Source of the DNA: Minisyncoccota bacterium | GTDB taxonomy: Bacteria > Patescibacteriota > Microgenomatia > Levybacterales > UBA12049 | Length of the DNA: 37,457 nt | Assembly: GCA_025449795.1 (NCBI GenBank) | Contig: JANWIQ010000053.1 | Span: 1-37,457 of the forward strand | Reading direction: 5' to 3' | Part shown: piece by piece, positions 12,301 to 35,758 of the stretch | Numbering within the stretch: position 1 is the first letter of the stretch | Layout: each line of letters starts with the position of its first letter | Translations under genes and position numbers: made by a program | Notes under the pieces: generated by a model | What the model was told of the DNA's origin: nothing | Database searches by the model: none | What the model saw: only the letters and a program-made list of their open reading frames with translations

Positions 12301-12394
12301 GGGTCCTGCCGCTCGTAAAACTCGCAGTGCTTACTCCCTGCGCTATACAGCTTGTGGTCGTTGCGCCCCTGTTAGCATTTTACTCGCGTCACCC
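12301..12394 (-). repeat. Divergent (94-nt) member of the structured element family found at 19333 and 21642
   Basis: It shares both termini with the other copies: GGGTCCTGCC at the gene-proximal end and ACTCGCG..CACCC at the distal end. It has its own internal hairpin (CGCAG-GGAGUAAGCA-CUGCG in gene sense). It ends 9 nt upstream of the MFS ATG. Confidence 0.5.
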
Positions 12395-17654: not shown

Positions 17655-18092
17655 TTACTGTGTCGGTGTACCCGATGGTCTTGGACGGAACATTTGTACT
17701 GGATTAATTTGAATGTTTTGTGCCGTGACAGATCCATCAGAATTTGTTGTACCAAATACAGCTACCTCTGTTCCTGTAGTCAAGTCAGAAGAAGTTGCTG
17801 TACTAGATTTTACTATTCTCGTGCTTCCAGAGTAATTTACAATTTTACTGCTGCCGTCTGGAAGTTGGACGGTAACGCTATTGGTGTCCGTACTGATAAT
17901 TTTCCCAACCGTAGTACCTGCACCATTTCTGCCACCGCCAAATCTTCCGAAGCCCCCTTGTCCTGCAAATTGGGCAAAGCCGGATCTTGCTTGGGATTGT
18001 TGATATTTTTCTCCGCCAAAAAATGCAGCACCCCCAACAATTATGGCAACAAGAATAGTAATAATAAGAGAGTTTTTATTCATACTGTTCAC
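17655..18092 (-). CDS. Small membrane-anchored or secreted protein (DUF5666-like beta-rich domain, recalled from memory)
   Basis: 145 aa. N-terminal TM (SLIITILVAIIVGGAAFFGG), then a G/F/R-rich linker. The next stretch, GKIISTDTNSVTVQLPDGSSKIV...TRIV....ATSSDLTTGTEVAVFGTTNSDGSVTAQNIQI, looks beta-rich. Starts 5 nt after the permease gene. Confidence 0.6.
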   Translation of the reverse strand: MNSMNKNSLIITILVAIIVGGAAFFGGEKYQQSQARSGFAQFAGQGGFGRFGGGRNGAGTTVGKIISTDTNSVTVQLPDGSSKIVNYSGSTRIVKSSTATSSDLTTGTEVAVFGTTNSDGSVTAQNIQINPVQMFRPRPSGTPTQ

Positions 18093-18097
18093 CTCCT

Positions 18098-19324
18098 TTA
18101 CTCATAACGTAATGCTTCAATTGGTTGTAAATTTGCTGCGCGCCTTGCAGGATACCATCCAAAAAGTACGCCAATGCCAGCGGATACGATAAATGCGAGA
18201 AGGATAGATGATACCGATATAACAAAACCAATTTTAATAAGTGTCGAAAGCAGCAGTGAAACGCCGATACCAAGAAGAATACCAATAATTCCTCCGATAA
18301 AAGTTAAAAGCAGTGCCTCGATAAGAAACTGGGTGACAATGACTTGTTTTTTTGCTCCGAGCGCTTTTCTGAGGCCTATTTCCCGTGTCCTTTCGGTGAC
18401 CGAAACAAGCATAATATTCATAATGCCAATACCTCCGACAAGAAGCGATATTGCGGCAATGCCAGAGAGTAGTGCGGTAAAGGTATTCGTGGTAGTGGTG
18501 GCAGCTTGTAAAATATCTGCTTCGGAAAGAATACTAAAATCAGCTTGCGTTGGATTTTGTAACTTGTGCCGCGAAAGAAGTACGTAGCCAATTTGGTTTT
18601 CTGCGTCGGTCATAAGGTCTGCAGATTTTACCTGGACGGAAATACTGGTAAGGTGCGTTACGCCAAATACTTCTTCTTGTGCCGTGGAAAGGGGAATATA
18701 GATATTATCATCCTGGTTGAGAAAGCCGGTACCGCCCTTGGAAACAGTCACGCCGACAATATGAAACGCAATATTGTTAATACGGATGAGTTGCCCGATG
18801 GGGTCAGCGCCATCTGAGAAAAGATTTGCCGCTGCTTGAGGCCCAACAACAGCAACTCTTGTAAGCGCTTGTTGGTCCTGTGTGGTGATAAAATTTCCCT
18901 CTGCAACTTGTACATTGCTCACTACGGCATAGGATGGGGTAACGCCAATCACAGAGGTATTGGTATTGTTGCCACCTGCAACAACCTGCACTCTTCCGGT
19001 ATAGGTTGGTGAAACAGCTGCGACATCGGTTATCTGGGGAGATGTTTGTATAGCGGTTGCATCATCGTTTGTCAGGGTTGTTGCGCCTCCCTGAGCCCCT
19101 CGTATCGCGCCGGCGTTGATAGACCCCGGGGTAATGGAAAGCAAGTTAGACCCAAGGCTTTGGATTTGGTTTTGGATTGTTTGCTGTGTTGCCTGTCCCA
19201 GTGAAAGGAGCGCAATCACACTCCCAATACCTATTACAATACCCAAAATCGCAAGTCCTGTCCTGAGCTTATTCAGGAAAAGTGTTGCAATGCTTTCTTT
19301 GATTATTTCTAAAAAATCATGCAT
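18098..19324 (-). CDS. ABC transporter permease, MacB/FtsX type (4 TM plus periplasmic core domain)
   Basis: Start trimmed to MHDFLEIIKESIATLFLNKLRTGLAILGIVIGIGSVI (ATG at 19324). C-terminal FtsX block ERTREIGLRKALGAKK...YPARRAANLQPIEALRYE. Confidence 0.88.
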   Translation of the reverse strand: MHDFLEIIKESIATLFLNKLRTGLAILGIVIGIGSVIALLSLGQATQQTIQNQIQSLGSNLLSITPGSINAGAIRGAQGGATTLTNDDATAIQTSPQITDVAAVSPTYTGRVQVVAGGNNTNTSVIGVTPSYAVVSNVQVAEGNFITTQDQQALTRVAVVGPQAAANLFSDGADPIGQLIRINNIAFHIVGVTVSKGGTGFLNQDDNIYIPLSTAQEEVFGVTHLTSISVQVKSADLMTDAENQIGYVLLSRHKLQNPTQADFSILSEADILQAATTTTNTFTALLSGIAAISLLVGGIGIMNIMLVSVTERTREIGLRKALGAKKQVIVTQFLIEALLLTFIGGIIGILLGIGVSLLLSTLIKIGFVISVSSILLAFIVSAGIGVLFGWYPARRAANLQPIEALRYE

Positions 19325-19332
19325 ATATCTTC

Positions 19333-19445
19333 GGGGTCCTGCCAATCGCAACTTTTCCCTTCGGTACCCTCAGGGCAAGCCAGTGCTTGCGACCCTTTTT
19401 ATCCTGAGCAAAGTCGAAGGAGAAAAAACTCGCGCCTGTTACCCC
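19333..19445 (-). repeat. 113-nt structured repeat element, copy A, between the ABC ATPase stop and the permease start
   Basis: About 94% identical to 21642-21755 (6 substitutions and 1 indel by hand alignment). It folds as an interrupted rod (see findings). It ends 8 nt upstream of the permease ATG. Confidence 0.8.
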
Positions 19446-19446
19446 T

Positions 19447-20172
19447 TTAATCTGTTGTATGTAGCCGTTTTGCTTTTTTCTGTTTTTTATTTCTATCATC
19501 TGCAATAATTTTTCCGTCTTTCACATGGATGATTCGTTTGCTATGCTCTGCAATGTCTGGCTCGTGAGTGATCATGACAATCGTATGTCCTCTGTTGTTA
19601 ATTTCCTGAAAAATTGCCATAATTTCTTCTGCCTGAGCAGAGGCAATGTTGCCAGTTGGCTCGTCTGCAAGAAGAAGAGCGGGGTTCATGACAAGTGCAC
19701 GGGCTATAGCAACGCGCTGTTGCTGACCGCCTGAAATTTGATTGGACGAGTGAGAGAGTCTTTTTCCCAGTCCCACCATTTCCAAATACTGGCGCGCTTT
19801 TTCTTCTCTTTCTTTTTCCGGCATTCCCCCATAGCGCATAGGGAGCATGACGTTTTGCAGAAGGGTAATGCGAGGCAATAGGTTAAAGGCCTGGAAAATA
19901 AACCCAATTTTTTTATTCCGAATATCTGCAAGTTCGTCATCGGAGAGTTTTTCCACATTTTGCCCGTCCAAGATGTAGGTACCGTTGGTTGGTGTATCTA
20001 ATGCTCCTAAAATATGCATGAGCGTTGACTTTCCACTTCCCGATGGTCCCATGATGGCAACAAATTCACCCTTACTGATAGAAAATGAAACATCGTCCAA
20101 GGCAACGGTTTGCATGGCTTCTGTTTGGTAGATTTTTGAAATATGTGAGATATCAATAGTTATGCTATTCAT
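19447..20172 (-). CDS. ABC transporter ATP-binding protein (MacB/LolD subfamily)
   Basis: Start trimmed to MNSITIDISHISKIY (ATG at 20172). Walker A GPSGSGKST, signature LSGGQQQRVAIARAL, Walker B LLLADEPT, H-loop ITHE. Confidence 0.92.
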   Translation of the reverse strand: MNSITIDISHISKIYQTEAMQTVALDDVSFSISKGEFVAIMGPSGSGKSTLMHILGALDTPTNGTYILDGQNVEKLSDDELADIRNKKIGFIFQAFNLLPRITLLQNVMLPMRYGGMPEKEREEKARQYLEMVGLGKRLSHSSNQISGGQQQRVAIARALVMNPALLLADEPTGNIASAQAEEIMAIFQEINNRGHTIVMITHEPDIAEHSKRIIHVKDGKIIADDRNKKQKKAKRLHTTD

Positions 20173-20228
20173 CTTCAGATAAACTCGGATAGAACTCGGT
20201 TTTCCGGCTATCAGATAATTCTGGTGTT

Positions 20229-20247
20229 CTGGTACCCTAAGTACCAG
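20229..20247 (-). other. Intercistronic hairpin between the MFP and ATPase genes
   Basis: CUGGUAC-UUAGG-GUACCAG (7-bp perfect stem), nested inside a flanking AUCAGAU...AUCUGAU inverted repeat. Confidence 0.4.
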
Positions 20248-20263
20248 CTGAGTTTCATCTGAT

Positions 20264-21631
20264 TTATTGTCCCCTTGCTCCACCTGCTCCTGAGCCACCT
20301 GATCGGAAAACAGCTCCCCCGCCGCCAAAACCTCCAAATCCGCGGGTTGCACTAAAAGGTGAAGAAGCGCTTGTGCCACTTGCTGTTGTGGAAATACCAG
20401 TTACCACGCTCTGTCCTTCAGAAAGTCCAGAGGTAATTTCTGTATCTGTATCAGAGCTAATACCGATAGTGACAGGTACTTGTTGTATTTGGCCATTTTG
20501 TAAGACCCGGACTGTTGGAGATGTTCCTGTGTTTTGTATTGCAGCAGAAGGGACAGTAAGGACGTCATCTTTGCGTGCTGTTTGTATATTGACTGTTGCA
20601 GACATGCCTGGTTCTATCTCCTCTGGTGCAGCAAGAAAAGCAACATATATATTGTAGGTAACTACGCCAGAGGTAACTGTACCTACCGTATCTACTCCTT
20701 GCACTTGCCCGACAAATGTTTTACCAGGAAATGCATTCAGGGTTATAGTTGCTTTTTGCCCTGTTTTAATTTTTGGAATGTCTACTTCACTTGCCTGAAT
20801 TTTAATAGTTGGACGTGAAAAGTCACCAACAGTAAGGACAGTGGTGCCGGATGCGGTATTGGCAGAAGAAGCAAGTTCGCTTGTCAGATTGCCGCTACTT
20901 GCGGTTACTTGGGAGCCAACTTGGACAGAAATATTTGCAATTGTACCGCTAATTGGCGAGGTGACAAGTGAATCCTGAGTTGCTTGGTATGCTAAAGATG
21001 CAGAGTTAAGGCCAGCTTGGGCTGCGTTGATGACGCCTTGCTGGTTAGTATAATCTGCTTGCGCCTGCAGCCATGCCGCATTTTCTTCAATATATTTTGG
21101 ATCTGCCATCTGGCCAACGCTTGGATTGGCTACCCCTCTATCCGTAACGAATGCTTGGTTGGCAACAAAAAGTGCTTCTTGTAAAGAATTCATTTTTGCC
21201 TGTGCGCTATTGAGGGTATTTTGGGCCGCAAGCAAAGACGCATATGCGCTGGCAATCTCTTGTGAAGTTGCCGTACTTTTTACTTTAAATAAATTTTGCC
21301 CAACCGTTACGGTATCGCCGTCTTTTACATACAATGCCTCAACAACCCCTGTGGTGGGCGAGCCAATGCCGCCTTGGCTATTGGTAGAAATATTTCCAGA
21401 CTCACTTACAGAGGCAATAATGGTGCGCTTTGTCACCTGGGCTGTCTGGTATTGTGGCGAAGAAGTACTTTGGGTAAATGTTTTCCATCCAAAAAACCCA
21501 AGAATTACCACAAAAAAAAGCGTAAGGAACGTTCGCCATTTTGTGCCAAAAAGGAGTGGTTTTGTCTGTTGAAGCGTATGCACAAAAAAAGAATTTTTAT
21601 TTTCTTTGGCAATTTGCTTATCTGTTGTCAT
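20264..21631 (-). CDS. Efflux periplasmic adaptor subunit (MacA/HlyD family) with a Gly-rich C-terminal tail
   Basis: Start trimmed to MTTDKQIAKE (ATG at 21631). TM (FLTLFFVVILGFFGW), lipoyl motif VKDGDTVTVGQNLFKV, coiled coil, beta-barrel. The tail is GFGGFGGGGAVFRSGGSGAGGARGQ. Confidence 0.85.
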   Translation of the reverse strand: MTTDKQIAKENKNSFFVHTLQQTKPLLFGTKWRTFLTLFFVVILGFFGWKTFTQSTSSPQYQTAQVTKRTIIASVSESGNISTNSQGGIGSPTTGVVEALYVKDGDTVTVGQNLFKVKSTATSQEIASAYASLLAAQNTLNSAQAKMNSLQEALFVANQAFVTDRGVANPSVGQMADPKYIEENAAWLQAQADYTNQQGVINAAQAGLNSASLAYQATQDSLVTSPISGTIANISVQVGSQVTASSGNLTSELASSANTASGTTVLTVGDFSRPTIKIQASEVDIPKIKTGQKATITLNAFPGKTFVGQVQGVDTVGTVTSGVVTYNIYVAFLAAPEEIEPGMSATVNIQTARKDDVLTVPSAAIQNTGTSPTVRVLQNGQIQQVPVTIGISSDTDTEITSGLSEGQSVVTGISTTASGTSASSPFSATRGFGGFGGGGAVFRSGGSGAGGARGQ

Positions 21632-21641
21632 AATTTTTTTC

Positions 21642-21755
21642 GGGGTCCTGCCAACCGCAACTTTTTCCCTTCGGTACACCCAGGGCAAGCCAGTGCTTGC
21701 GACCCTTTTTATCCTGAGCAAAGTCGAAGGAGAAAAAACTCGTGCCTGTCATCCC
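21642..21755 (-). repeat. 114-nt structured repeat element, copy B, between the histidine kinase and the MFP start
   Basis: Near-identical to 19333-19445. It ends 10 nt upstream of the MFP ATG. Confidence 0.8.
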
Positions 21756-21809
21756 TTCTCGTATCCTCTCTATGCACTATAGTTTTACCATCTGAAAAAG
21801 TGCTGAAAG

Positions 21810-22814
21810 TTATTTTTCAAGCGGCAAGAAAACAGTAAAGGTTGTTTTATTTCCCAAAATGCTCTTGACTGCTATATGTCCATGATGCTCGGTAATTATT
21901 TTTTTCGCAATAGATAGACCCAATCCATATCCTGGAATTTCCTGCTTTGTGCGGGATATATCTGCGCGATAAAATCTATCGAAGATATGGGGAATTGCTG
22001 CCTCTTCTATCCCCATTCCCTGGTCTGTTATTTGGATTGCTGCTTTGTCATCTACCATGTGTATGGTAATAGTGATTACGGTTTTTTTTGGGCTATATTT
22101 GATGGCATTATCAAGAAGAATGGCAAATACCTGAGACAGGCTGTCTTTGTCTCCTTTTACTCGAAGGTCACGGGTCGGTTTTTTTATGGAAATATTTTTT
22201 TGTTTTGCCAATTTTTCCGTTTTTTTCATCGCCATTTGTAGCACGTGCTGAAGGGAGATAGGAGTAGATACGTGGCGTTGGGATTTTTGCTCCCGCACGA
22301 GTTGTATCAGATTGTCAGACAATATGTGCAAATTATTTACCTCTTCAAGATTGCTTACCAGGAGTGCATCTGCTTCTTCTTTGGTGCGATGTTTGCTTCG
22401 CAAATAGACTTCTATTTCGGATTTGAGCGACGTAATAGGGGTACGAAGCTCGTGGGAAACGTCGGTAACAAATCGATTTTGCTCATCCATCATTTGTTTT
22501 ATTGGACGCAGAGTAAATCCTGCTAAGATGTATCCTCCAATACCTGAAACGCCAAAAATAATACAATTTACGTAAATAAGAATCCATTGTATTCTGTCTT
22601 CTGATGCTTGCAGATAGGAAGGTTCTAATAGCTGAGGATTCATCTGTGGCGCCAGAGCACCAAATTCCTGGGAGTACCTTTGCGTAATCCTATGGAAGCT
22701 GCGGTCAAGTTCGTTTGTTAGAATATGGTAGATAGAAAAACTAAACATAATGCTAATAAGCATAATAATGAGAAGATACCATATGGTGAGTGTAATGCGG
22801 GCTGTAGTAAACAT
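21810..22814 (-). CDS. Sensor histidine kinase (two TM segments, HisKA plus HATPase_c)
   Basis: 334 aa. H-box VSHELRTPITSL, N-box LLDNAIKYS, G-boxes DQGMGI and GYGLGLSIAKKIITEHHG. Confidence 0.9.
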   Translation of the reverse strand: MFTTARITLTIWYLLIIMLISIMFSFSIYHILTNELDRSFHRITQRYSQEFGALAPQMNPQLLEPSYLQASEDRIQWILIYVNCIIFGVSGIGGYILAGFTLRPIKQMMDEQNRFVTDVSHELRTPITSLKSEIEVYLRSKHRTKEEADALLVSNLEEVNNLHILSDNLIQLVREQKSQRHVSTPISLQHVLQMAMKKTEKLAKQKNISIKKPTRDLRVKGDKDSLSQVFAILLDNAIKYSPKKTVITITIHMVDDKAAIQITDQGMGIEEAAIPHIFDRFYRADISRTKQEIPGYGLGLSIAKKIITEHHGHIAVKSILGNKTTFTVFLPLEK

Positions 22815-22815
22815 A

Positions 22816-23487
22816 TTATCCTATCTTGTATCCAAATCCTCGTACGGTGTGAATAAGCGGGTTTGTAAAGGGTTTGTCTATTTTGCTGCGCAGTAATTTG
22901 ATATACACCTCTACGGTATTGGGAAGAATATTTGCGTCATAATTCCATACGTGCGCAATAATTTGTTCTTTTGTGAGGACTTTTTGGGCATGTCGCATAA
23001 GGTATTCTAAAAGTGAAAATTCTTTACTGGAAAGCGCAAGGGGTCTGCCTTCCCTTTCCACGGAAAAAGTAAGCGTATCGAGCGTGAGTGTCCCAACGGA
23101 AAGGACATGTCCAAGCGTAGCCTTTGGCCTTCGCGTGAGAGCTCTTACTCGTGCAAGCAGCTCTTCAAAAGCAAAAGGTTTCGCAAGATAGTCATCTGCA
23201 CCAGCATTAAGGCCTTCTACCTTGTCTTCTACCTGTCCTTTTGCGGTAAGAAGGAGAATTGGCGTGTGGATTTCCTGCGAGCGCAATTTTTTGCAAATTT
23301 CAATGCCATCAATTCCCGGAAGTAATCTATCCAGAATAATAAGGTCATATTCTTCGCTTGCTGCCATGTCATATCCTTCGCTTCCCGTGTATATGGCATC
23401 TGCTGCAAAAAGCTCCTGCGCCAGACCCTTTTTTATGGAGTTGGCAATCTTATGTTCGTCTTCAACAACGAGGATTCTCATACCCAT
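22816..23487 (-). CDS. OmpR/PhoB-family response regulator
   Basis: 223 aa. Receiver domain (RILVVEDE...DLIILDRLLPGIDG...LLLTAKG) and winged-helix trans_reg_C domain (LTLD...LSSKEFSLLEYLM...VRGFGYKI). An alternative start is the second ATG at 23481. Confidence 0.92.
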   Translation of the reverse strand: MGMRILVVEDEHKIANSIKKGLAQELFAADAIYTGSEGYDMAASEEYDLIILDRLLPGIDGIEICKKLRSQEIHTPILLLTAKGQVEDKVEGLNAGADDYLAKPFAFEELLARVRALTRRPKATLGHVLSVGTLTLDTLTFSVEREGRPLALSSKEFSLLEYLMRHAQKVLTKEQIIAHVWNYDANILPNTVEVYIKLLRSKIDKPFTNPLIHTVRGFGYKIG

Positions 23488-23966: not shown

Positions 23967-25130
23967 GTGAAAGTAAACGCTTCACTACAAGTACTTTCTG
24001 GCATAAGTGTTCATTTATTGAAGCCACTTTCTCCTGAGGATACCTATGCAATGCTTCTTCGCGAGGCAAAAAAAGCTTTTGGTATTGCTTCTGGGTCGAT
24101 ATTTCTCAGATACCGCGCCAGTTGGCACCGCGTCTACTCAACTGTTCCGCAAGACGGTCAAGTTACCCCTCGTGCAAGGGGATTTTCCTATAAAGTATTT
24201 GCTACCCAATCCCCCATGCTCGTAAGGAAAAAGCTATTTGTAAGCCATCACCCTGAGGCAAAGCATATTGCCATGGAGACGCTCCTTATTGTCCCCTTGA
24301 GCTATGGCGGCCGTCCGCTTGGTATTATGGCGCTTCGTACAGTTACCATAAAAACACTTACAAAAAAATTGCGCCACGGACTGCTTATGTACAGCTCTTT
24401 GGCAACGCTCGCTATTAAAAATACGCAGCTCTATGAAGAAAGCAAAGAAGCACTACGGATACGGGATTTATTTATTTCCCTTGCAGCACACGAACTTCGT
24501 ACGCCGCTCACCGCAATCAATGTCTACACACAACTTCTTCTCAGAAAACTTCGCGTCCTCAATTTCCCCTATTTGCAATGGGCGCAAGAGCTATCCGATG
24601 AGACATCCCATCTCATCCGTCTGGTAAACGAATTATTGAATGTTGACCTAATTCAACATGGCGTATTTTTTTACCAAATGAAACCCGTCTTGCTTGCGGA
24701 CGTGGTGCAGCGGGCTGTTCGGCAATTTTCCCTTACAAATCCCCTCTTCTCTGTGCATATAAAAAATCACGTGCAGCCAAGCGGAAAAATTATTGCAGAT
24801 CCAGACAAACTTCTCGAACTTTTTACCTGTATTTTGCAAAATGCGGGTAAATTTTCTCAAGAGAAAAAGGACATCGAGATAACCATTGAAGAGAAACCCA
24901 AAACAGTTTCTATTATCATTCAAGATAACGGGGTGGGTATCCTCACAAAGGATAAGGGAAAAATATTTGAAGCATTTTACAAAGGAAATAATGCCACATA
25001 CGAGGGCATGGGACTTGGATTATTTTTGAGTAAACGTATTGTGGAAAAACATAACGGTACGATTGTGATTGCACCCCGAAAAAGCAGAGGAACGTCAGTA
25101 GTAGTAACTTTTCCAAGAAAAACCATATGA
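23967..25130 (+). CDS. Cytoplasmic sensor histidine kinase with an N-terminal GAF-like domain
   Basis: 387 aa from a GTG start, no TM. H-box LAAHELRTPLTAI, N-box ILQNAGKFS, G-boxes QDNGVGI and GMGLGLFLSKRIVEKHNG. The first ~150 aa resemble GAF (LLIVPLSYGGRPLGIMAL). Confidence 0.85.
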   Translation: MKVNASLQVLSGISVHLLKPLSPEDTYAMLLREAKKAFGIASGSIFLRYRASWHRVYSTVPQDGQVTPRARGFSYKVFATQSPMLVRKKLFVSHHPEAKHIAMETLLIVPLSYGGRPLGIMALRTVTIKTLTKKLRHGLLMYSSLATLAIKNTQLYEESKEALRIRDLFISLAAHELRTPLTAINVYTQLLLRKLRVLNFPYLQWAQELSDETSHLIRLVNELLNVDLIQHGVFFYQMKPVLLADVVQRAVRQFSLTNPLFSVHIKNHVQPSGKIIADPDKLLELFTCILQNAGKFSQEKKDIEITIEEKPKTVSIIIQDNGVGILTKDKGKIFEAFYKGNNATYEGMGLGLFLSKRIVEKHNGTIVIAPRKSRGTSVVVTFPRKTI

Positions 25131-31314: not shown

Positions 31315-31339
31315 AAACGTACACCTCGGGAGTGTACTT
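31315..31339 (+). repeat. Left hairpin repeat flanking the Y1 transposase gene
   Basis: AAACGTACACCTCGGGAGTGTACTT. It contains the hairpin GTACAC-CTCGGGA-GTGTAC. Its reverse complement recurs at 32060-32084 (24/25 identical). Confidence 0.8.
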
Positions 31340-31372
31340 GACAGAGAGAAAAAGTAAGGCAATAATGGTTGT

Positions 31373-32059
31373 ATGCCAGGTAGATTGGTTCCTTTGGTGA
31401 AAGGTGAAATGTATCATGTATTTAACCGGGGCATAAATAAGCAGATCATCTTTACCTCACAAAGAGATTACCGGAGAGTACTTGAAGTACTTGAATTTTA
31501 TTCCTATAAGAAGCCTCGCCTAAGTTACTCCAAATATTTACTATTGCATCCTGAAAGCCAACAATTATTTTTTGAAGAATTACGAGAAAGTGGCGAAAAG
31601 ATAGTTGAAATAATTTCTTACTGTTTTATGCCTAACCATTTTCATTTGCAGCTTCGTCAATTAGATGAAAATGGTATATCTATATTTTTAGGTAACCTAC
31701 AGAATAGTTACACGCGCTACTTTAATACGAAGTATCACAAAATTGGACCACTACTTCAAGGAAGATTTAAGGCAATTTTAATTGAAAATATGTTTCAGTT
31801 ACTTCATGTTTCTCGATATATTCATCTCAATCCTTACTCCTCAGGTATTTGCCAAACAGCGGAAGATCTTTTGAAGTATCCTTGGTCTTCCTTGGGGGAA
31901 TATATTGCAGATAGCAATACTACCTCGCTCTGCACAAAAAGGGATGTTCTTTCAGAATTTAATGCATCAAGTTATAAGGATTTTGTTTTAGATCAAGCAG
32001 ACTATCAAAGAGAATTAGACCAAATAAAACACGTGTTGCTTGAAGATGAAGATTTTTGA
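31373..32059 (+). CDS. Y1 (HUH) transposase, IS200-like / RAYT family
   Basis: 228 aa. YHVFNRGINKQIIF, HUH motif CFMPNHFHLQL, catalytic-Tyr block VSRYIHLNPYSSGI, and YPWSSLGEY. This is the typical Y1_Tnp/RAYT pattern. Confidence 0.85.
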   Translation: MPGRLVPLVKGEMYHVFNRGINKQIIFTSQRDYRRVLEVLEFYSYKKPRLSYSKYLLLHPESQQLFFEELRESGEKIVEIISYCFMPNHFHLQLRQLDENGISIFLGNLQNSYTRYFNTKYHKIGPLLQGRFKAILIENMFQLLHVSRYIHLNPYSSGICQTAEDLLKYPWSSLGEYIADSNTTSLCTKRDVLSEFNASSYKDFVLDQADYQRELDQIKHVLLEDEDF

Positions 32060-32084
32060 AAGTACACTCCCGAGGTGTATGTTT
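32060..32084 (-). repeat. Right hairpin repeat (inverted copy) flanking the Y1 transposase gene
   Basis: AAGTACACTCCCGAGGTGTATGTTT is the reverse complement of 31315-31339 with one mismatch. Confidence 0.8.
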
Positions 32085-35351: not shown

Positions 35352-35435
35352 GCCGCGGTGGTGAAATGGTATACACGGAGGCCTTAAGAGCCTTTGTCCT
35401 TATACGACGTGCGAGTTCGAGTCTCGCCCGCGGCA
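35352..35435 (+). tRNA. tRNA-Leu (anticodon UAA), class II long variable arm; no encoded CCA
   Basis: Hand-folded. Acceptor GCCGCGG/CCGCGGC, D stem GUG/CAC, anticodon arm GAGGC-CUUAAGA-GCCUU, T arm GCGAG-UUCGAGU-CUCGC, discriminator A. Confidence 0.9.
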
Positions 35436-35458
35436 CACACCTGGTAAAATATATACAA

Positions 35459-35532
35459 CGGGGATTAGCTCAGTTGGCTAGAGCGCGCGGTTTGGGACCG
35501 TGAGGTCGGAAGTTCGAGTCTTCTATCCCCGA
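35459..35532 (+). tRNA. tRNA-Pro (anticodon UGG); no encoded CCA
   Basis: Acceptor CGGGGAU/AUCCCCG, D arm GCUC-AGUUGGCUA-GAGC, anticodon arm CGCGG-UUUGGGA-CCGUG, T arm GGAAG-UUCGAGU-CUUCU. Confidence 0.9.
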
Positions 35533-35537
35533 CACAT

Positions 35538-35612
35538 GCGGGTTTAGCTCAGTGGTAGAGCATCTGCTTTCCAAGCAGAGTGTCGTGGGTTCGAGTCCCA
35601 TAACCCGCTCCA
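35538..35612 (+). tRNA. tRNA-Gly (anticodon UCC) with encoded CCA
   Basis: Acceptor GCGGGUU/AACCCGC, anticodon arm UCUGC-UUUCCAA-GCAGA, T arm GUGGG-UUCGAGU-CCCAU, discriminator U, then CCA. Confidence 0.9.
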
Positions 35613-35614
35613 CT

Positions 35615-35687
35615 GCTCCCATAGCTCAGTGGATAGAGCATTTCGGTTCTAACGAAGTGGTCGGGGGTTCGAATCCCTCTGGGAGCG
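35615..35687 (+). tRNA. tRNA-Arg (anticodon UCU); no encoded CCA
   Basis: Acceptor GCUCCCA/UGGGAGC, D arm GCUC-AGUGGAUA-GAGC, anticodon arm UUUCG-GUUCUAA-CGAAG, T arm GGGGG-UUCGAAU-CCCUC, discriminator G. Confidence 0.88.
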
Positions 35688-35690
35688 CAG

Positions 35691-35733
35691 AAACTTTTTT
35701 AAGGCTTTTTGTCTTAAAAAAGTTTTTTGATTT
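35691..35733 (+). terminator. Rho-independent terminator of the tRNA cluster
   Basis: Perfect 13-bp stem AAACUUUUUUAAG / CUUAAAAAAGUUU with a 9-nt loop, followed by UUUGAUUUU. Confidence 0.7.
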
Positions 35734-35758
35734 TCAATAGGATTCGAACTGCCGGACG

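What the first reader, a model, noticed from the sequence alone, without database searches (positions are those of the whole stretch)
19333..21755. Two ~94%-identical 113/114-nt rod-shaped elements lie directly 5' of start codons inside the TCS-MacAB efflux operon
Copies at 19333-19445 and 21642-21755 differ by 6 substitutions and 1 indel (hand alignment). Both are in gene orientation and end 8 nt and 10 nt upstream of the permease and adaptor ATGs. In gene sense the RNA folds into an interrupted rod with five helices. The outer helix is GGGGU/ACCCC, followed by CGCGA/UUGCG. Next comes an 11-bp helix, UUUUC(U)CCUUCG/CGAAGGGAAAA. The last two are CUCAGG/CCUGAG and the apical hairpin GCAAGC-ACUG-GCUUGC. 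One substitution changes a U-A pair to U-G in the CUCAGG/CCUGRG helix, which preserves the structure. Other changes, in the outer helices, are not compensated. The 3' arm ends in GGCAGGACCCC, containing the only SD-like AGGA near these starts, and the 5' GGGGU can pair with its ACCCC. ORF callers read through both copies and create false N-terminal extensions (MRLAGPRRY..., MLRIKRVASTGLPWVYRREKVAVGRTPKKI...). I can see three candidate roles: a cis-regulatory leader for efflux genes, an intercistronic mRNA stability or processing element (REP/BIME-like), or a small non-autonomous mobile element. I do not recognise it as a known RNA family.
Basis: seen in the sequence. Interest (0 to 1): 0.75.

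Follow-up and report, generated by a model that had tools for sequence, protein, structure and literature searches.

The report
Mobile palindromic repeats inside efflux operons
The two 113-nt "rods" are real, but they are recent insertions of a small non-coding palindromic repeat (REP-dimer/MITE-like) that related bacteria lack at the same spots, so they are most likely selfish or exapted hairpin DNA rather than a conserved riboswitch-like leader, although the small family they belong to sits oddly consistently in front of efflux-gene start codons.

Summary
The copies at 19333-19445 and 21642-21755 (minus strand, gene sense) differ by 6 substitutions and 1 indel (93.9% identity). They fold into the described rod and end 8 and 10 nt before the permease and adaptor ATGs.

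- **No known RNA family:** there is no Rfam match.
- **Empty sites in relatives:** orthologous operons (permease 76-81% identical) have an overlapping TAATG at the ATPase/permease junction and a 13-60-nt HK/adaptor spacer. The rods are therefore lineage-specific insertions, not a conserved leader.
- **Widespread arms:** the inner arms are an inverted pair of a widespread TGTC/CGTC-tagged REP-like hairpin unit (ATCCTGAGCRAAGYCGAAGGA). This unit occurs in at least 200 unrelated metagenome and viral contigs, next to unrelated genes and often as inverted dimers.
- **A local family:** the outer ends (5' RGGGRTGRC ... RCAGGACCCC 3') define a small family with variable interiors. It has a third, diverged copy upstream of the MFS efflux gene (12301-12394) and copies at other efflux-operon junctions in relatives. 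All are gene-sense and lie just upstream of an ATG.

A Y1 (RAYT-like) transposase gene lies 12 kb away, but a different hairpin flanks it.

Best reading: a non-autonomous copy-and-paste palindromic repeat acting, if at all, as an intercistronic mRNA hairpin. The efflux and orientation bias is unexplained.

The parts
19333..19445 (-). Copy A of the 113-nt palindromic element. It fills the ATPase-permease junction, starting 1 nt after the ATPase TAA and ending 8 nt before the permease ATG.
   Evidence: Relatives L010, L011 and L021 have TAATG or a 1-nt spacer here.
21642..21755 (-). Copy B (114 nt), in the HK-adaptor spacer. It lies downstream of a conserved TTTTCAG-N-TATAGT block and ends 10 nt before the adaptor ATG.
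   Evidence: Relatives have 13-60-nt spacers without it.
19399..19420 (+). REP-like unit 1 inside copy A (ATCCTGAGCAAAGTCGAAGGAG, read on the + strand). It forms the 5' arm of the rod in gene sense. The same unit lies in copy B at 21709-21730.
   Evidence: 21/22 match to the widespread unit tgtcATCCTGAGCRAAGYCGAAGGAtct. Here the TGTC/CGTC tag is replaced by TTTT.
19358..19374 (-). REP-like unit 2 inside copy A (CCTGAGGGTACCGAAGG). It is inverted relative to unit 1, so the unit 5' ends face inward (a 'TT' dimer).
   Evidence: A 28-35-nt relative of this half lies directly downstream of a Y1 transposase homologue in contig L140 (shuffle p<0.003).
19375..19390 (-). Apical hairpin GCAAGC-ACTG-GCTTGC, the spacer of the dimer. 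On the + strand it is followed by GACCCTTTTT, giving a weak terminator-like site for antisense transcription.
12301..12394 (-). Copy C, a diverged family member. It shares the ends (GGGTGACGCGAGT ... GGCAGGACCC) but has an unrelated interior. It ends 9 nt before the ATG of the MFS efflux gene (12291-10753).
   Evidence: The orthologous L009 spacer (18074-18175) has the same ends and a different interior.
18098..19324 (-). MacB-type permease gene, downstream of copy A.
   Evidence: Pfam MacB_PCD + FtsX.
19447..20172 (-). ABC ATPase gene, upstream of copy A. Its C-terminus aligns to the last residue with relatives.
20264..21631 (-). HlyD/MFP adaptor gene, downstream of copy B.
21810..23487 (-). 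Two-component system, upstream of copy B: HK at 21810-22814 and OmpR-type RR at 22816-23487.
31315..32084 (+). Candidate (unproven) mobiliser: a Y1/HUH RAYT-like transposase gene at 31373-32059. It is flanked by 25-nt inverted hairpin repeats at 31315-31339 and 32060-32084 (core GTACACCTCGGGAGTGTAC).
   Evidence: Pfam Y1_Tnp, E 4.4e-6. NCBIfam REP_Tyr_transpos, 40 bits, below the cutoff. Inverted repeats. The flanking hairpin is not similar to the 113-nt element.

Best explanation
Copies A and B are two recent copies of a small non-coding, non-autonomous palindromic repeat. They were inserted into two intercistronic or leader positions of the TCS-MacAB operon in this Patescibacteria (CPR) lineage.

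**Anatomy (shown).**
- The core is an inverted pair of a REP-like hairpin unit (CCTGAGC-N4-5-CGAAGG) around a short spacer hairpin.
- This core is nested inside outer arms with conserved asymmetric ends: 5' RGGGRTGRC and RCAGGACCCC 3'.
- The inner unit belongs to a very widespread TGTC/CGTC-tagged REP-like class.
- The outer ends define a small local family that has been copied between junctions of efflux operons in related genomes.

**Propagation (inferred).** The most likely route is a DNA-level copy-and-paste process of the REP/REPIN or IS200-derived type: no target duplication, strand-specific, via single-stranded hairpins. A Y1/HUH transposase like the one 12 kb away may be involved.

**Effect (inferred).** Once inserted in the operon, the element is transcribed as a stable stem-loop of -41 to -46 kcal/mol.
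- In copy A it replaces the ancestral TAATG stop/start overlap. The outer helix abuts the ATPase stop codon and masks the 3' tail in front of the permease ATG.
- Its likely consequences are therefore those known for intercistronic REP/ERIC hairpins: a 3'-exonuclease barrier or processing site, and altered coupling of ATPase and permease translation.
- Only the gene-sense orientation would be tolerated, because the opposite orientation places a terminator-like hairpin in the operon transcript.
For: - **Recent duplication:** two near-identical copies at non-homologous sites.
- **Empty orthologous sites:**
  - The ATPase stop overlaps the permease start (GACTAATG) in L010 and L011, and is 1 nt away in L021.
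  - HK-adaptor spacers of 13-60 nt lack the element in L009, L010, L011, L023 and L024.
  - ATPase C-termini align to the last residue in the four loci aligned (window, L009, L010, L011), so the spacer is an insertion.
- **Repeated invasion of one junction:** the same junction holds different fillers in other relatives.
  - L024 has a single TGTC-tagged unit in the opposite orientation (27-nt match, shuffle p<0.002).
  - L022 and L023 have an AT-rich palindrome.
- **Widespread arm unit:**
  - Found in 88 IMG/VR contigs, against about 2 expected (my own estimate, assuming about 60 Gb for that collection).
  - 31% have an inverted partner within 90 nt, against 1.3% of random windows.
  - Stems covary: ATTC/GAAT, ATCC/GGAT, ATGG/CCAT, ATGC/GCAT. 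The 5' tag is TGTC or CGTC in 58/82.
  - Neighbours are 184 unrelated Pfam families.
- **Format match to a described class:** the unit fits the CGTC-tagged REP superfamily of Di Nocera et al. 2013 (PMC3733652).
- **Family with the same ends at other junctions:** window C, L009 MFS-upstream, and the L010 and L021 permease-DUF5666 junctions. L021 and L009 share interior sequence despite lying at different loci.
- **No coding or known RNA:** no Rfam hit and no peptide relatives in 5.8e9 proteins.
- **Possible transposase link:**
  - A Y1 transposase with HUH and Tyr motifs lies in the window.
  - A homologue in L140 has a relative of the element's 3' half directly downstream.
- **Orientation filter:** there is a terminator-like site on the antisense strand only.
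Against: - Only 2 copies (3 with C) are visible in 37 kb, and the rest of the source genome could not be reached, so high copy number is unproven.
- No exact relatives of the A/B interior were found. This covers GTDB representative genomes, JGI metagenomes and IMG/VR, each scanned only with exact-match patterns that cover part of the element.
- There is no target-site duplication, and the terminal inverted repeat is only 5 bp (GGGGT/ACCCC). This is not a classical DDE MITE.
- The window's Y1 gene is flanked by a different hairpin. Y1 homologues in L236 and L238 have no such element nearby.
- All 7 family members are gene-sense, just upstream of an ATG and inside efflux operons (rough P about 0.003). 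Random transposition does not predict this; a selected RNA function does.
- Gene-sense RNA is more stable than antisense in 5 of 7 members and about equal in L009_MFS and L010.
Confidence: 0.6

Rival explanations
1. The rods are a cis-regulatory RNA module, such as a ligand- or protein-responsive leader or a translational-coupling switch, specific to efflux pump genes. The conserved ends (SD-like 5' AGGGGUGA, invariant CAGGAC, CCCC) would form the functional core at the base of a variable hairpin. Opening of the outer helix, by an upstream ribosome or a factor, would expose the region in front of the ATG.
For: - All 7 family members are gene-sense. They lie 8-37 nt upstream of an ATG (8-19 nt in five of the seven; further in L009's ATPase-permease copy and in L021, which has its own SD after the element) and sit inside MacAB or MFS efflux operons.
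- The ends are much better conserved than the interiors.
- The C copy is retained at the orthologous MFS-upstream site in L009.
- Sense RNA is as stable as, or more stable than, antisense RNA in 7/7.
- Copy A's outer helix starts 1 nt after the ATPase stop, so a terminating ribosome would melt it.
Against: - Copies A and B are absent from orthologous sites in all close relatives.
- Presence and absence differ junction by junction.
- Interiors are unrelated, so there is no conserved pocket.
- Fold z-scores of the older members are weak, from -0.8 to -2.0.
- There is no Rfam match.
- The two operons have different regulators (an OmpR-type RR versus MarR).
- SD use is rare in this genome.
- The A/B arms are generic dispersed REP units with no gene association.
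- The sample of loci was chosen around the MacB gene, which inflates the apparent efflux association.
Confidence: 0.17
2. The element is a true REPIN. In that case it would be a REP doublet mobilised specifically by the single-copy RAYT-like Y1 transposase at 31373-32059, and part of a vertically inherited REPIN-RAYT system in a CPR bacterium.
For: - A Y1/HUH protein with RAYT-like motifs lies in the window. Its best NCBIfam hit is REP_Tyr_transpos.
- Homologues are single-copy and widespread in Microgenomates. In the two homologue loci examined (L236, L238) the gene sits in the same neighbourhood, and many homologues lie on very short contigs, as expected next to repeats.
- L140 carries a 45%-identical Y1 gene with a relative of the element's 3' half immediately downstream. 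It also has a second motif-bearing copy 2.5 kb away.
- The doublet architecture matches REPINs.
Against: - The window's Y1 gene is flanked by a different, conserved hairpin (ACACYTCGGRAGTGTA) that shows no similarity to the element.
- The NCBIfam score is below the cutoff.
- L236 and L238 have Y1 genes but no such element within 10 kb.
- CGTC-type REPs are reported to lack a dedicated transposase (PMC3733652).
- Copy number is unknown.
Confidence: 0.15
3. There is no mobility. The two copies would then result from one local duplication or gene-conversion event within the operon, as direct repeats 2.3 kb apart flanking the adaptor and ATPase genes. The resemblance to other elements would be convergent hairpin sequence.
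For: - Only two near-identical copies are seen. They are direct repeats within one operon.
- No target-site duplication is visible.
Against: - The flanks of the two copies are unrelated and the gene order is ancestral.
- A 21-nt exact match to a unit found in hundreds of contigs cannot be convergence.
- Elements with the same ends occur at four other junctions in three genomes.
Confidence: 0.08

Closest known systems
CGTC/TGTC-tagged REP superfamily (Di Nocera, De Gregorio & Rocco 2013, PMC3733652)
   Same: - The widespread unit that forms the arms has a 5' TGTC/CGTC tag.
- Its stem starts with A-T and T-A pairs, runs about 8-9 positions, and closes a short loop.
- Units are mostly arranged as inverted dimers with 20-100-nt spacers that can fold into one large hairpin.
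- They are dispersed next to unrelated genes, and no dedicated transposase is known.
   Different: - The two units in the window copies have lost the tag (TTTT and TTGC).
- They form the rarer tag-inward ('TT') dimer.
- They are nested in extra outer arms with their own conserved ends.
- The stem includes tandem G.A positions.
- I could not see the paper's consensus figures, so sequence-level membership is unverified.
REPIN-RAYT systems (Bertels & Rainey 2011, PMC3116915)
   Same: - Two inverted REP-like units with a spacer fold into a long hairpin.
- A single-copy Y1/HUH transposase gene, flanked by inverted hairpins, is present in the same genome segment.
   Different: - The hairpin flanking the Y1 gene is a different sequence.
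- There is no GTAG tag.
- Copy number is unknown.
- The host is a CPR bacterium rather than a proteobacterium.
ERIC/IRU and Correia-type intercistronic palindromic repeats (my own knowledge of the literature, not read here)
   Same: - They are imperfect palindromes of about 100-130 nt inserted in transcribed intergenic regions of operons.
- They fold in the mRNA and can change stability, processing or translation of neighbouring cistrons.
   Different: - ERIC and Correia elements have long terminal inverted repeats.
- They occur in both orientations.
- Correia elements make a TA duplication.
- None of these features is seen here.
IS200/IS605-derived non-autonomous elements (PATEs) (my own knowledge of the literature, not read here)
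   Same: - The ends are asymmetric.
- There is no target duplication.
- All copies lie on one strand.
- There is hairpin content.
- A Y1 transposase gene is nearby.
   Different: - No shared end sequences with the Y1 gene unit.
- No fixed target tetranucleotide. There is only a TTC on the + strand before the three window copies.
Riboswitches and leaders of efflux genes (e.g. guanidine-II/mini-ykkC)
   Same: A short structured RNA lies directly upstream of efflux transporter start codons.
   Different: - No Rfam match at E<=10.
- No conserved loop motif.
- Interiors are unrelated between members.
- The element is absent from orthologous sites.

Membership tests
CGTC/TGTC-tagged REP (Di Nocera 2013) | Unpaired 5' tag CGTC (or TGTC/CCTC) | tested here: not met
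   The widespread unit has TGTC in 55 and CGTC in 3 of 82. The window units are preceded by TTTT (unit 1) and TTGC (unit 2). L024's unit at the same junction has TGTC.
CGTC/TGTC-tagged REP (Di Nocera 2013) | Stem of 8-9 bp beginning with A-T and T-A pairs, with a short loop | tested here: inconclusive
   Widespread unit: the AT-NN/NN-AT stem covaries. The rest of the stem includes tandem G.A positions. Window unit 1 starts with AT, but its partner is GGAG. Unit 2 starts with CCCT.
CGTC/TGTC-tagged REP (Di Nocera 2013) | Organised mainly as inverted dimers with 20-100-bp spacers | tested here: met
   63 of 204 widespread units have an inverted partner within 90 nt (48 tag-outward, 20 tag-inward, 5 both). 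The window element is a tag-inward dimer with a 28-nt spacer.
REPIN (Bertels & Rainey 2011) | Two inverted REPs that fold into one hairpin | tested here: met
REPIN (Bertels & Rainey 2011) | Cognate RAYT gene flanked by the same REP | tested here: not met
   A Y1 gene is present, but its flanking hairpin GTACACCTCGGGAGTGTAC is unrelated to the element.
REPIN (Bertels & Rainey 2011) | Tens to hundreds of copies per genome | not testable with these tools
   Only 37 kb of the source genome is available. Its other contigs are not in the searchable collections.
Classical MITE (DDE-transposase derived) | Terminal inverted repeats of 10 bp or more, plus a target-site duplication | tested here: not met
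   The ends share only GGGGT/ACCCC. The flanks of A, B, C and the L009, L010 and L021 copies show no common duplication.
Conserved cis-regulatory RNA (riboswitch or leader) | Present at orthologous positions, with a conserved core and covarying helices | tested here: not met
   A and B are absent from 5-7 orthologous operons. The C/L009 pair conserves only the ends. Covariation is not testable for A/B. The outer helix GGGG/CCCC never varies.
Conserved cis-regulatory RNA (riboswitch or leader) | Match to a curated RNA family | tested here: not met
   Rfam 15 at the gathering threshold and at E<=10 gives nothing relevant.
Conserved cis-regulatory RNA (riboswitch or leader) | Consistent association with one gene class and one orientation | tested here: met
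   7/7 members of the termini family are gene-sense and lie in efflux operons. The inner REP unit shows no such association.

The most novel reading that the evidence does not exclude
The termini family (5' AGGGGUGAC ... CAGGACCCC 3', variable interior) would be a previously undescribed, transcription-oriented 'portable leader' of CPR bacteria. It would be a copy-and-paste RNA/DNA module that spreads specifically between cistron junctions of drug-efflux operons. There it would supply a hairpin that couples or gates translation of the downstream pump gene. It might be moved as single-stranded DNA by the RAYT-like Y1 transposase. That would make it a mobile cis-regulatory element rather than junk, and the first REPIN-like system tied to a functional gene class in Patescibacteria.
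Probability: 0.15. Interest if true: 0.7.

Novelty: new member of a known kind. Interest (0 to 1): 0.38.

Why it matters
- **Annotation.** These rods create long spacers and false N-terminal extensions in CPR efflux operons. An example is the L021 gene call that starts inside the element. They should be masked as repeats and not reported as riboswitch candidates.
- **Repeat biology.** Streamlined Patescibacteria genomes still carry REP-dimer-like repeats and a RAYT-like Y1 transposase. One widespread TGTC/CGTC-tagged hairpin unit is shared almost unchanged across contigs of GC 0.24-0.67.
- **Possible regulation.** If the orientation and efflux bias holds genome-wide, the family would be a tractable case of a mobile element exapted as an intercistronic expression module.

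Tried and rejected
- **Rfam:** the gathering-threshold scan on the window and the E<=10 scans on the A/B, C and L009 regions gave nothing relevant. The scan of 11 loci carrying the widespread unit also gave nothing.
- **Exact-pattern scans for the A/B interior:**
  - GTDB genomes gave 8 hits, all chance.
  - JGI metagenomes gave 0.
  - IMG/VR gave 0, or chance hits only.
  - A termini pattern in IMG/VR gave 0.
- **Six-frame peptides:** a search of the element's translations against 5.8e9 proteins, meant to catch spurious ORFs elsewhere, found none.
- **Source genome:** exact look-up of the window's own proteins to reach other contigs found nothing on record.
- **L009 ATPase-permease spacer as a homologue of copy A:**
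  - Smith-Waterman against shuffles is not significant (p about 0.15).
  - It scores as a family member only with a PSSM trained on a set that includes it, so I treat it as doubtful.
- **Y1 hairpin versus the element:** not significant.
- **Neighbour-gene enrichment around the widespread unit** (looking for a transposase, GIY-YIG or 23S-IVS protein): none, with 184 families among 148 neighbours.
- **Literature search** by literal DNA and peptide strings found no relevant paper.
- **Ideas rejected by reading the sequence:**
  - A hammerhead-like core: CUGA..GAA lacks the required positions.
  - A kink-turn at the base: the bulge length does not fit and it is absent in A and B.
  - A guanidine-II-like ACGR loop: the apex is ACUG.
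  - AGGA as a functional SD: spacing of 12-33 nt is inconsistent, and most genes here lack an SD.


Full report
**1.

The window contains exactly two copies of the element, at 19333-19445 and 21642-21755. A global alignment gives 6 substitutions and 1 indel, 93.9% identity.

The surrounding genes are on the minus strand (Pfam):
- OmpR-type response regulator, 23487-22816
- histidine kinase, 22814-21810
- copy B
- HlyD-type adaptor, 21631-20264
- ABC ATPase, 20172-19447
- copy A
- MacB permease, 19324-18098
- DUF5666 protein

Copy A starts 1 nt after the ATPase TAA and ends 8 nt before the permease ATG. Copy B ends 10 nt before the adaptor ATG.

Energies are -46.4 kcal/mol (z -2.8) for A and -41.3 kcal/mol (z -1.6) for B. 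One substitution gives U-A to U-G, and two break outer pairs. The antisense strand of A folds almost as well, so the palindrome exists at the DNA level.

Homologues of the permease and of the Y1 protein are named Patescibacteria/Microgenomates in public records, so the CPR origin is plausible.

**2. It is not a known RNA and not a conserved leader**

Rfam 15 gives nothing at the gathering threshold or at E<=10.

I fetched seven orthologous operons through the closest permease homologues (76-81% identity).
- At the ATPase-permease junction, L010 and L011 read GACTAATG, so stop and start overlap. L021 has a 1-nt spacer.
- ATPase C-termini align to the last residue in the four loci aligned (window, L009, L010, L011). 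The 122-nt spacer of the window is therefore an insertion between stop and start.
- At the HK-adaptor junction, relatives have 13-60-nt spacers without the element. They share with the window a conserved TTTTCAG-N-TATAGT block upstream of it.

Copies A and B are thus lineage-specific insertions.

The same ATPase-permease junction has been filled independently in other relatives.
- L022 and L023 carry an unrelated AT-rich palindrome.
- L024 carries tgtcATCCTGAACAAAGTGAAGGAtctc. This matches the 5' arm of the window element in the opposite orientation (27 nt, p<0.002 against shuffles).

**3. The arms belong to a very widespread REP-like unit**

The pattern ATCCTGARCRAAGY(N)GAAGGA hits 88 IMG/VR contigs, where I estimate about 2 expected by chance.

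Features of this unit:
- The consensus is tgtcATCCTGAGCGAAGCGAAGGAtct.
- Further units in the same contigs, not selected by my pattern, show covarying stems. These are ATTC/GAAT 38, ATCC/GGAT 20, ATGG/CCAT 14 and ATGC/GCAT 5. The 5' tag is TGTC or CGTC in 58 of 82.
- 31% of 204 units have an inverted partner within 90 nt, against 1.3% of random windows.
- Rods with the same arms occur in unrelated GC-rich contigs.
- The nearest genes are 184 different Pfam families among 148 neighbours, with none enriched.

This format matches the CGTC-tagged REP superfamily of Di Nocera et al. 2013. That class has a tag that may read TGTC, stems of 8-9 bp starting with A-T and T-A, mostly inverted dimers with 20-100-bp spacers, and no dedicated transposase (PMC3733652). 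I could not see the paper's consensus figures, so this is a format match and not a sequence-verified membership.

In the window element:
- Unit 1 (ATCCTGAGCAAAGTCGAAGGAG on the + strand) and unit 2 (CCTGAGGGTACCGAAGG on the - strand) are inverted with their 5' sides facing inward.
- They flank the GCAAGC-ACTG-GCTTGC hairpin.
- Both have lost the tag.

**4. The outer ends define a small local family**

While checking ribosome-binding sites I found GGCAGGACCC again, 9 nt before the ATG of the MFS efflux gene. That spacer holds a third, diverged rod: copy C, 12301-12394, minus strand. It has the ends GGGTGACGCGAGT ... GGCAGGACCC and an unrelated interior.

The same ends occur in relatives:
- in the orthologous MFS-upstream spacer of L009 (18074-18175)
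- between the permease and the DUF5666 gene in L010 (11255-11334) and L021 (2326-2409)
- possibly in L009's ATPase-permease spacer, which is doubtful

L021 and L009-MFS share interior sequence (GAAGGGYTCCCGC...GCGGGA) although they lie at different junctions in different genomes. This argues for copying between sites.

A position-weight scan finds these 7 and no comparable hit in 1.78 Mb of unrelated contigs. It finds none in L011, L022-L024, L140, L236 or L238.

Properties of the family:
- All 7 are gene-sense.
- All lie 8-37 nt upstream of an ATG (8-19 nt in five of the seven).
- All are inside the MacAB or MFS efflux operons. My rough count of junctions gives P about 0.003 for five independent events. 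The loci were sampled around the MacB gene, however.
- There is no target duplication.
- The ends share only GGGGT/ACCCC.
- CAGGAC is invariant.
- Sense RNA is more stable than antisense RNA in five of the seven members and about equal in the other two, but z-scores are modest, from -0.8 to -3.0.

**5. A possible mobiliser**

The gene at 31373-32059 encodes a 228-aa Y1/HUH protein.
- Pfam Y1_Tnp matches at E 4.4e-6.
- The best NCBIfam hit is REP-associated tyrosine transposase, at 40 bits and below the cutoff.
- The motifs HFHLQL and YIHLNP are present.

The gene is flanked by 25-nt inverted hairpin repeats. It sits between obg and a D-Ala-D-Ala carboxypeptidase gene, which are adjacent in L011.

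Homologues are single-copy and widespread in Microgenomates. In the two homologue loci examined (L236, L238) the gene sits in the same LemA-x-Y1-Peptidase_M48 neighbourhood, with the same kind of flanking hairpin.

That hairpin is unrelated to the 113-nt element. However, contig L140 carries a 45%-identical Y1 gene. Immediately downstream of it lies a 28-35-nt relative of the element's central and 3' part (p<0.003). A second copy bearing the unit lies 2.5 kb away. The link is suggestive only.

**6. Mechanism**

Shown:
- recent duplication
- insertion relative to relatives
- composite REP-dimer anatomy
- membership in a local family that moves between junctions

Inferred:
- Propagation is by a DNA-level, hairpin-dependent, strand-specific process without target duplication, of the REP/REPIN or IS200-derived type.
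- Orientation inside operons may be filtered. On the antisense strand the apical hairpin is followed by GACCCTTTTT, a weak terminator-like site.
- In the mRNA the rod should behave like other intercistronic REP/ERIC hairpins, as a barrier to 3' exonucleases or a processing site.
- In copy A it replaces the ancestral overlapping stop/start. A ribosome finishing the ATPase must melt the outer helix, which frees the tail before the permease ATG.

**7. Verdict**

This is a real feature. It is best classed as a new member of the known kind 'REP-dimer/MITE-like intercistronic palindromic repeat', and not as a riboswitch.

The unexplained residue is the strict gene-sense, pre-ATG, efflux-operon distribution of the termini family. 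This keeps a modest probability, about 0.15, for a mobile cis-regulatory module.

Noticed in passing
window 31315-32084: A RAYT-like Y1/HUH transposase gene (31373-32059, 228 aa) is flanked by 25-nt inverted hairpin repeats at 31315-31339 and 32060-32084. It is inserted between obg and a Peptidase_S11 gene, which are adjacent in relative L011. Homologues in L140, L236 and L238 carry the same kind of flanking hairpin (ACACYTCGGRAGTGTA) followed by TTGACA.
   Followed up: partly
L025-L112 (IMG/VR) and L116-L235 (JGI metagenomes): A near-identical 27-nt unit, tgtcATCCTGA(G/A)C(G/A)AAG(C/T)(N)GAAGGAtct, occurs in hundreds of unrelated contigs with GC content 0.24-0.67. Its stems covary and it often has an inverted partner (agaTTCTTCGC..GCTCAGAATGACa). 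It has no Rfam family, and no paper in the held library contains the strings I searched. In format it fits the CGTC-tagged REPs of Di Nocera 2013.
   Followed up: partly
L203 and L205 (JGI contigs, GC 0.34): These contigs hold tandem arrays (2 and 4 copies seen) of a roughly 46-nt unit, ggttcgactacgctcaccattaATCCTGAGCAAAGTCGAAGGAttgat. The REP-like unit is amplified head-to-tail together with its inverted partner.
   Followed up: no
L140 5640-5840 and 8090-8238: A CPR-like contig carries a 45%-identical Y1 gene. Directly downstream lie two GCTTGCCCTGAG-containing units. A 22-nt repeat (CATCCGATGTGGATTAGTCCTT) is shared with a second unit-bearing site 2.5 kb away.
   Followed up: partly
window 21756-21809 and the HK-adaptor spacers of L009, L010, L023 and L024: A conserved block, TTTTCAG-N(10-15)-TATAGT, lies upstream of the adaptor gene in the window and relatives. 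It is probably an internal promoter, perhaps dependent on the response regulator. That would place copy B in a 5' UTR rather than between cistrons.
   Followed up: no
window gene starts, e.g. 23487, 17577, 35941: Most genes lack a Shine-Dalgarno sequence. Several have a TATAAT-like box 0-10 nt before the ATG (gcgtataatATG, ggtataatctgagcATG), which suggests leaderless mRNAs.
   Followed up: no
window 19498-19516 and 24782-24800: A perfect 19-nt inverted repeat (ATCTGCAATAATTTTTCCG / CGGAAAAATTATTGCAGAT) connects the ABC ATPase gene and the GAF histidine-kinase gene. About 0.005 such matches are expected by chance in 37 kb. Both may encode GKIIAD.
   Followed up: no
L022 2203-2284, L023 5919-6000; L022 3512-3750, L023 7228-7467: These relatives carry other structured fillers at the same operon junctions. 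One is an 82-nt AT-rich palindrome between the ATPase and the permease. The other is a roughly 240-nt GC-rich hairpin-rich spacer before the DUF5666-like gene, ending in GGGGGGTGACATATG.
   Followed up: no
L021 2397-2440: The public gene call for the DUF5666-like gene starts at a GTG inside the element's 3' end. A strong SD (AAAGGAGGTGA) and an ATG follow about 35 nt later, so the call is probably a false N-terminal extension caused by the element.
   Followed up: no
window 35352-35688: A cluster of four tRNA genes: Leu-TAA, Pro-TGG, Gly-TCC and Arg-TCT. It is followed by a 42-nt imperfect inverted repeat (35662-35754) that includes the 3' end of tRNA-Arg.
   Followed up: no
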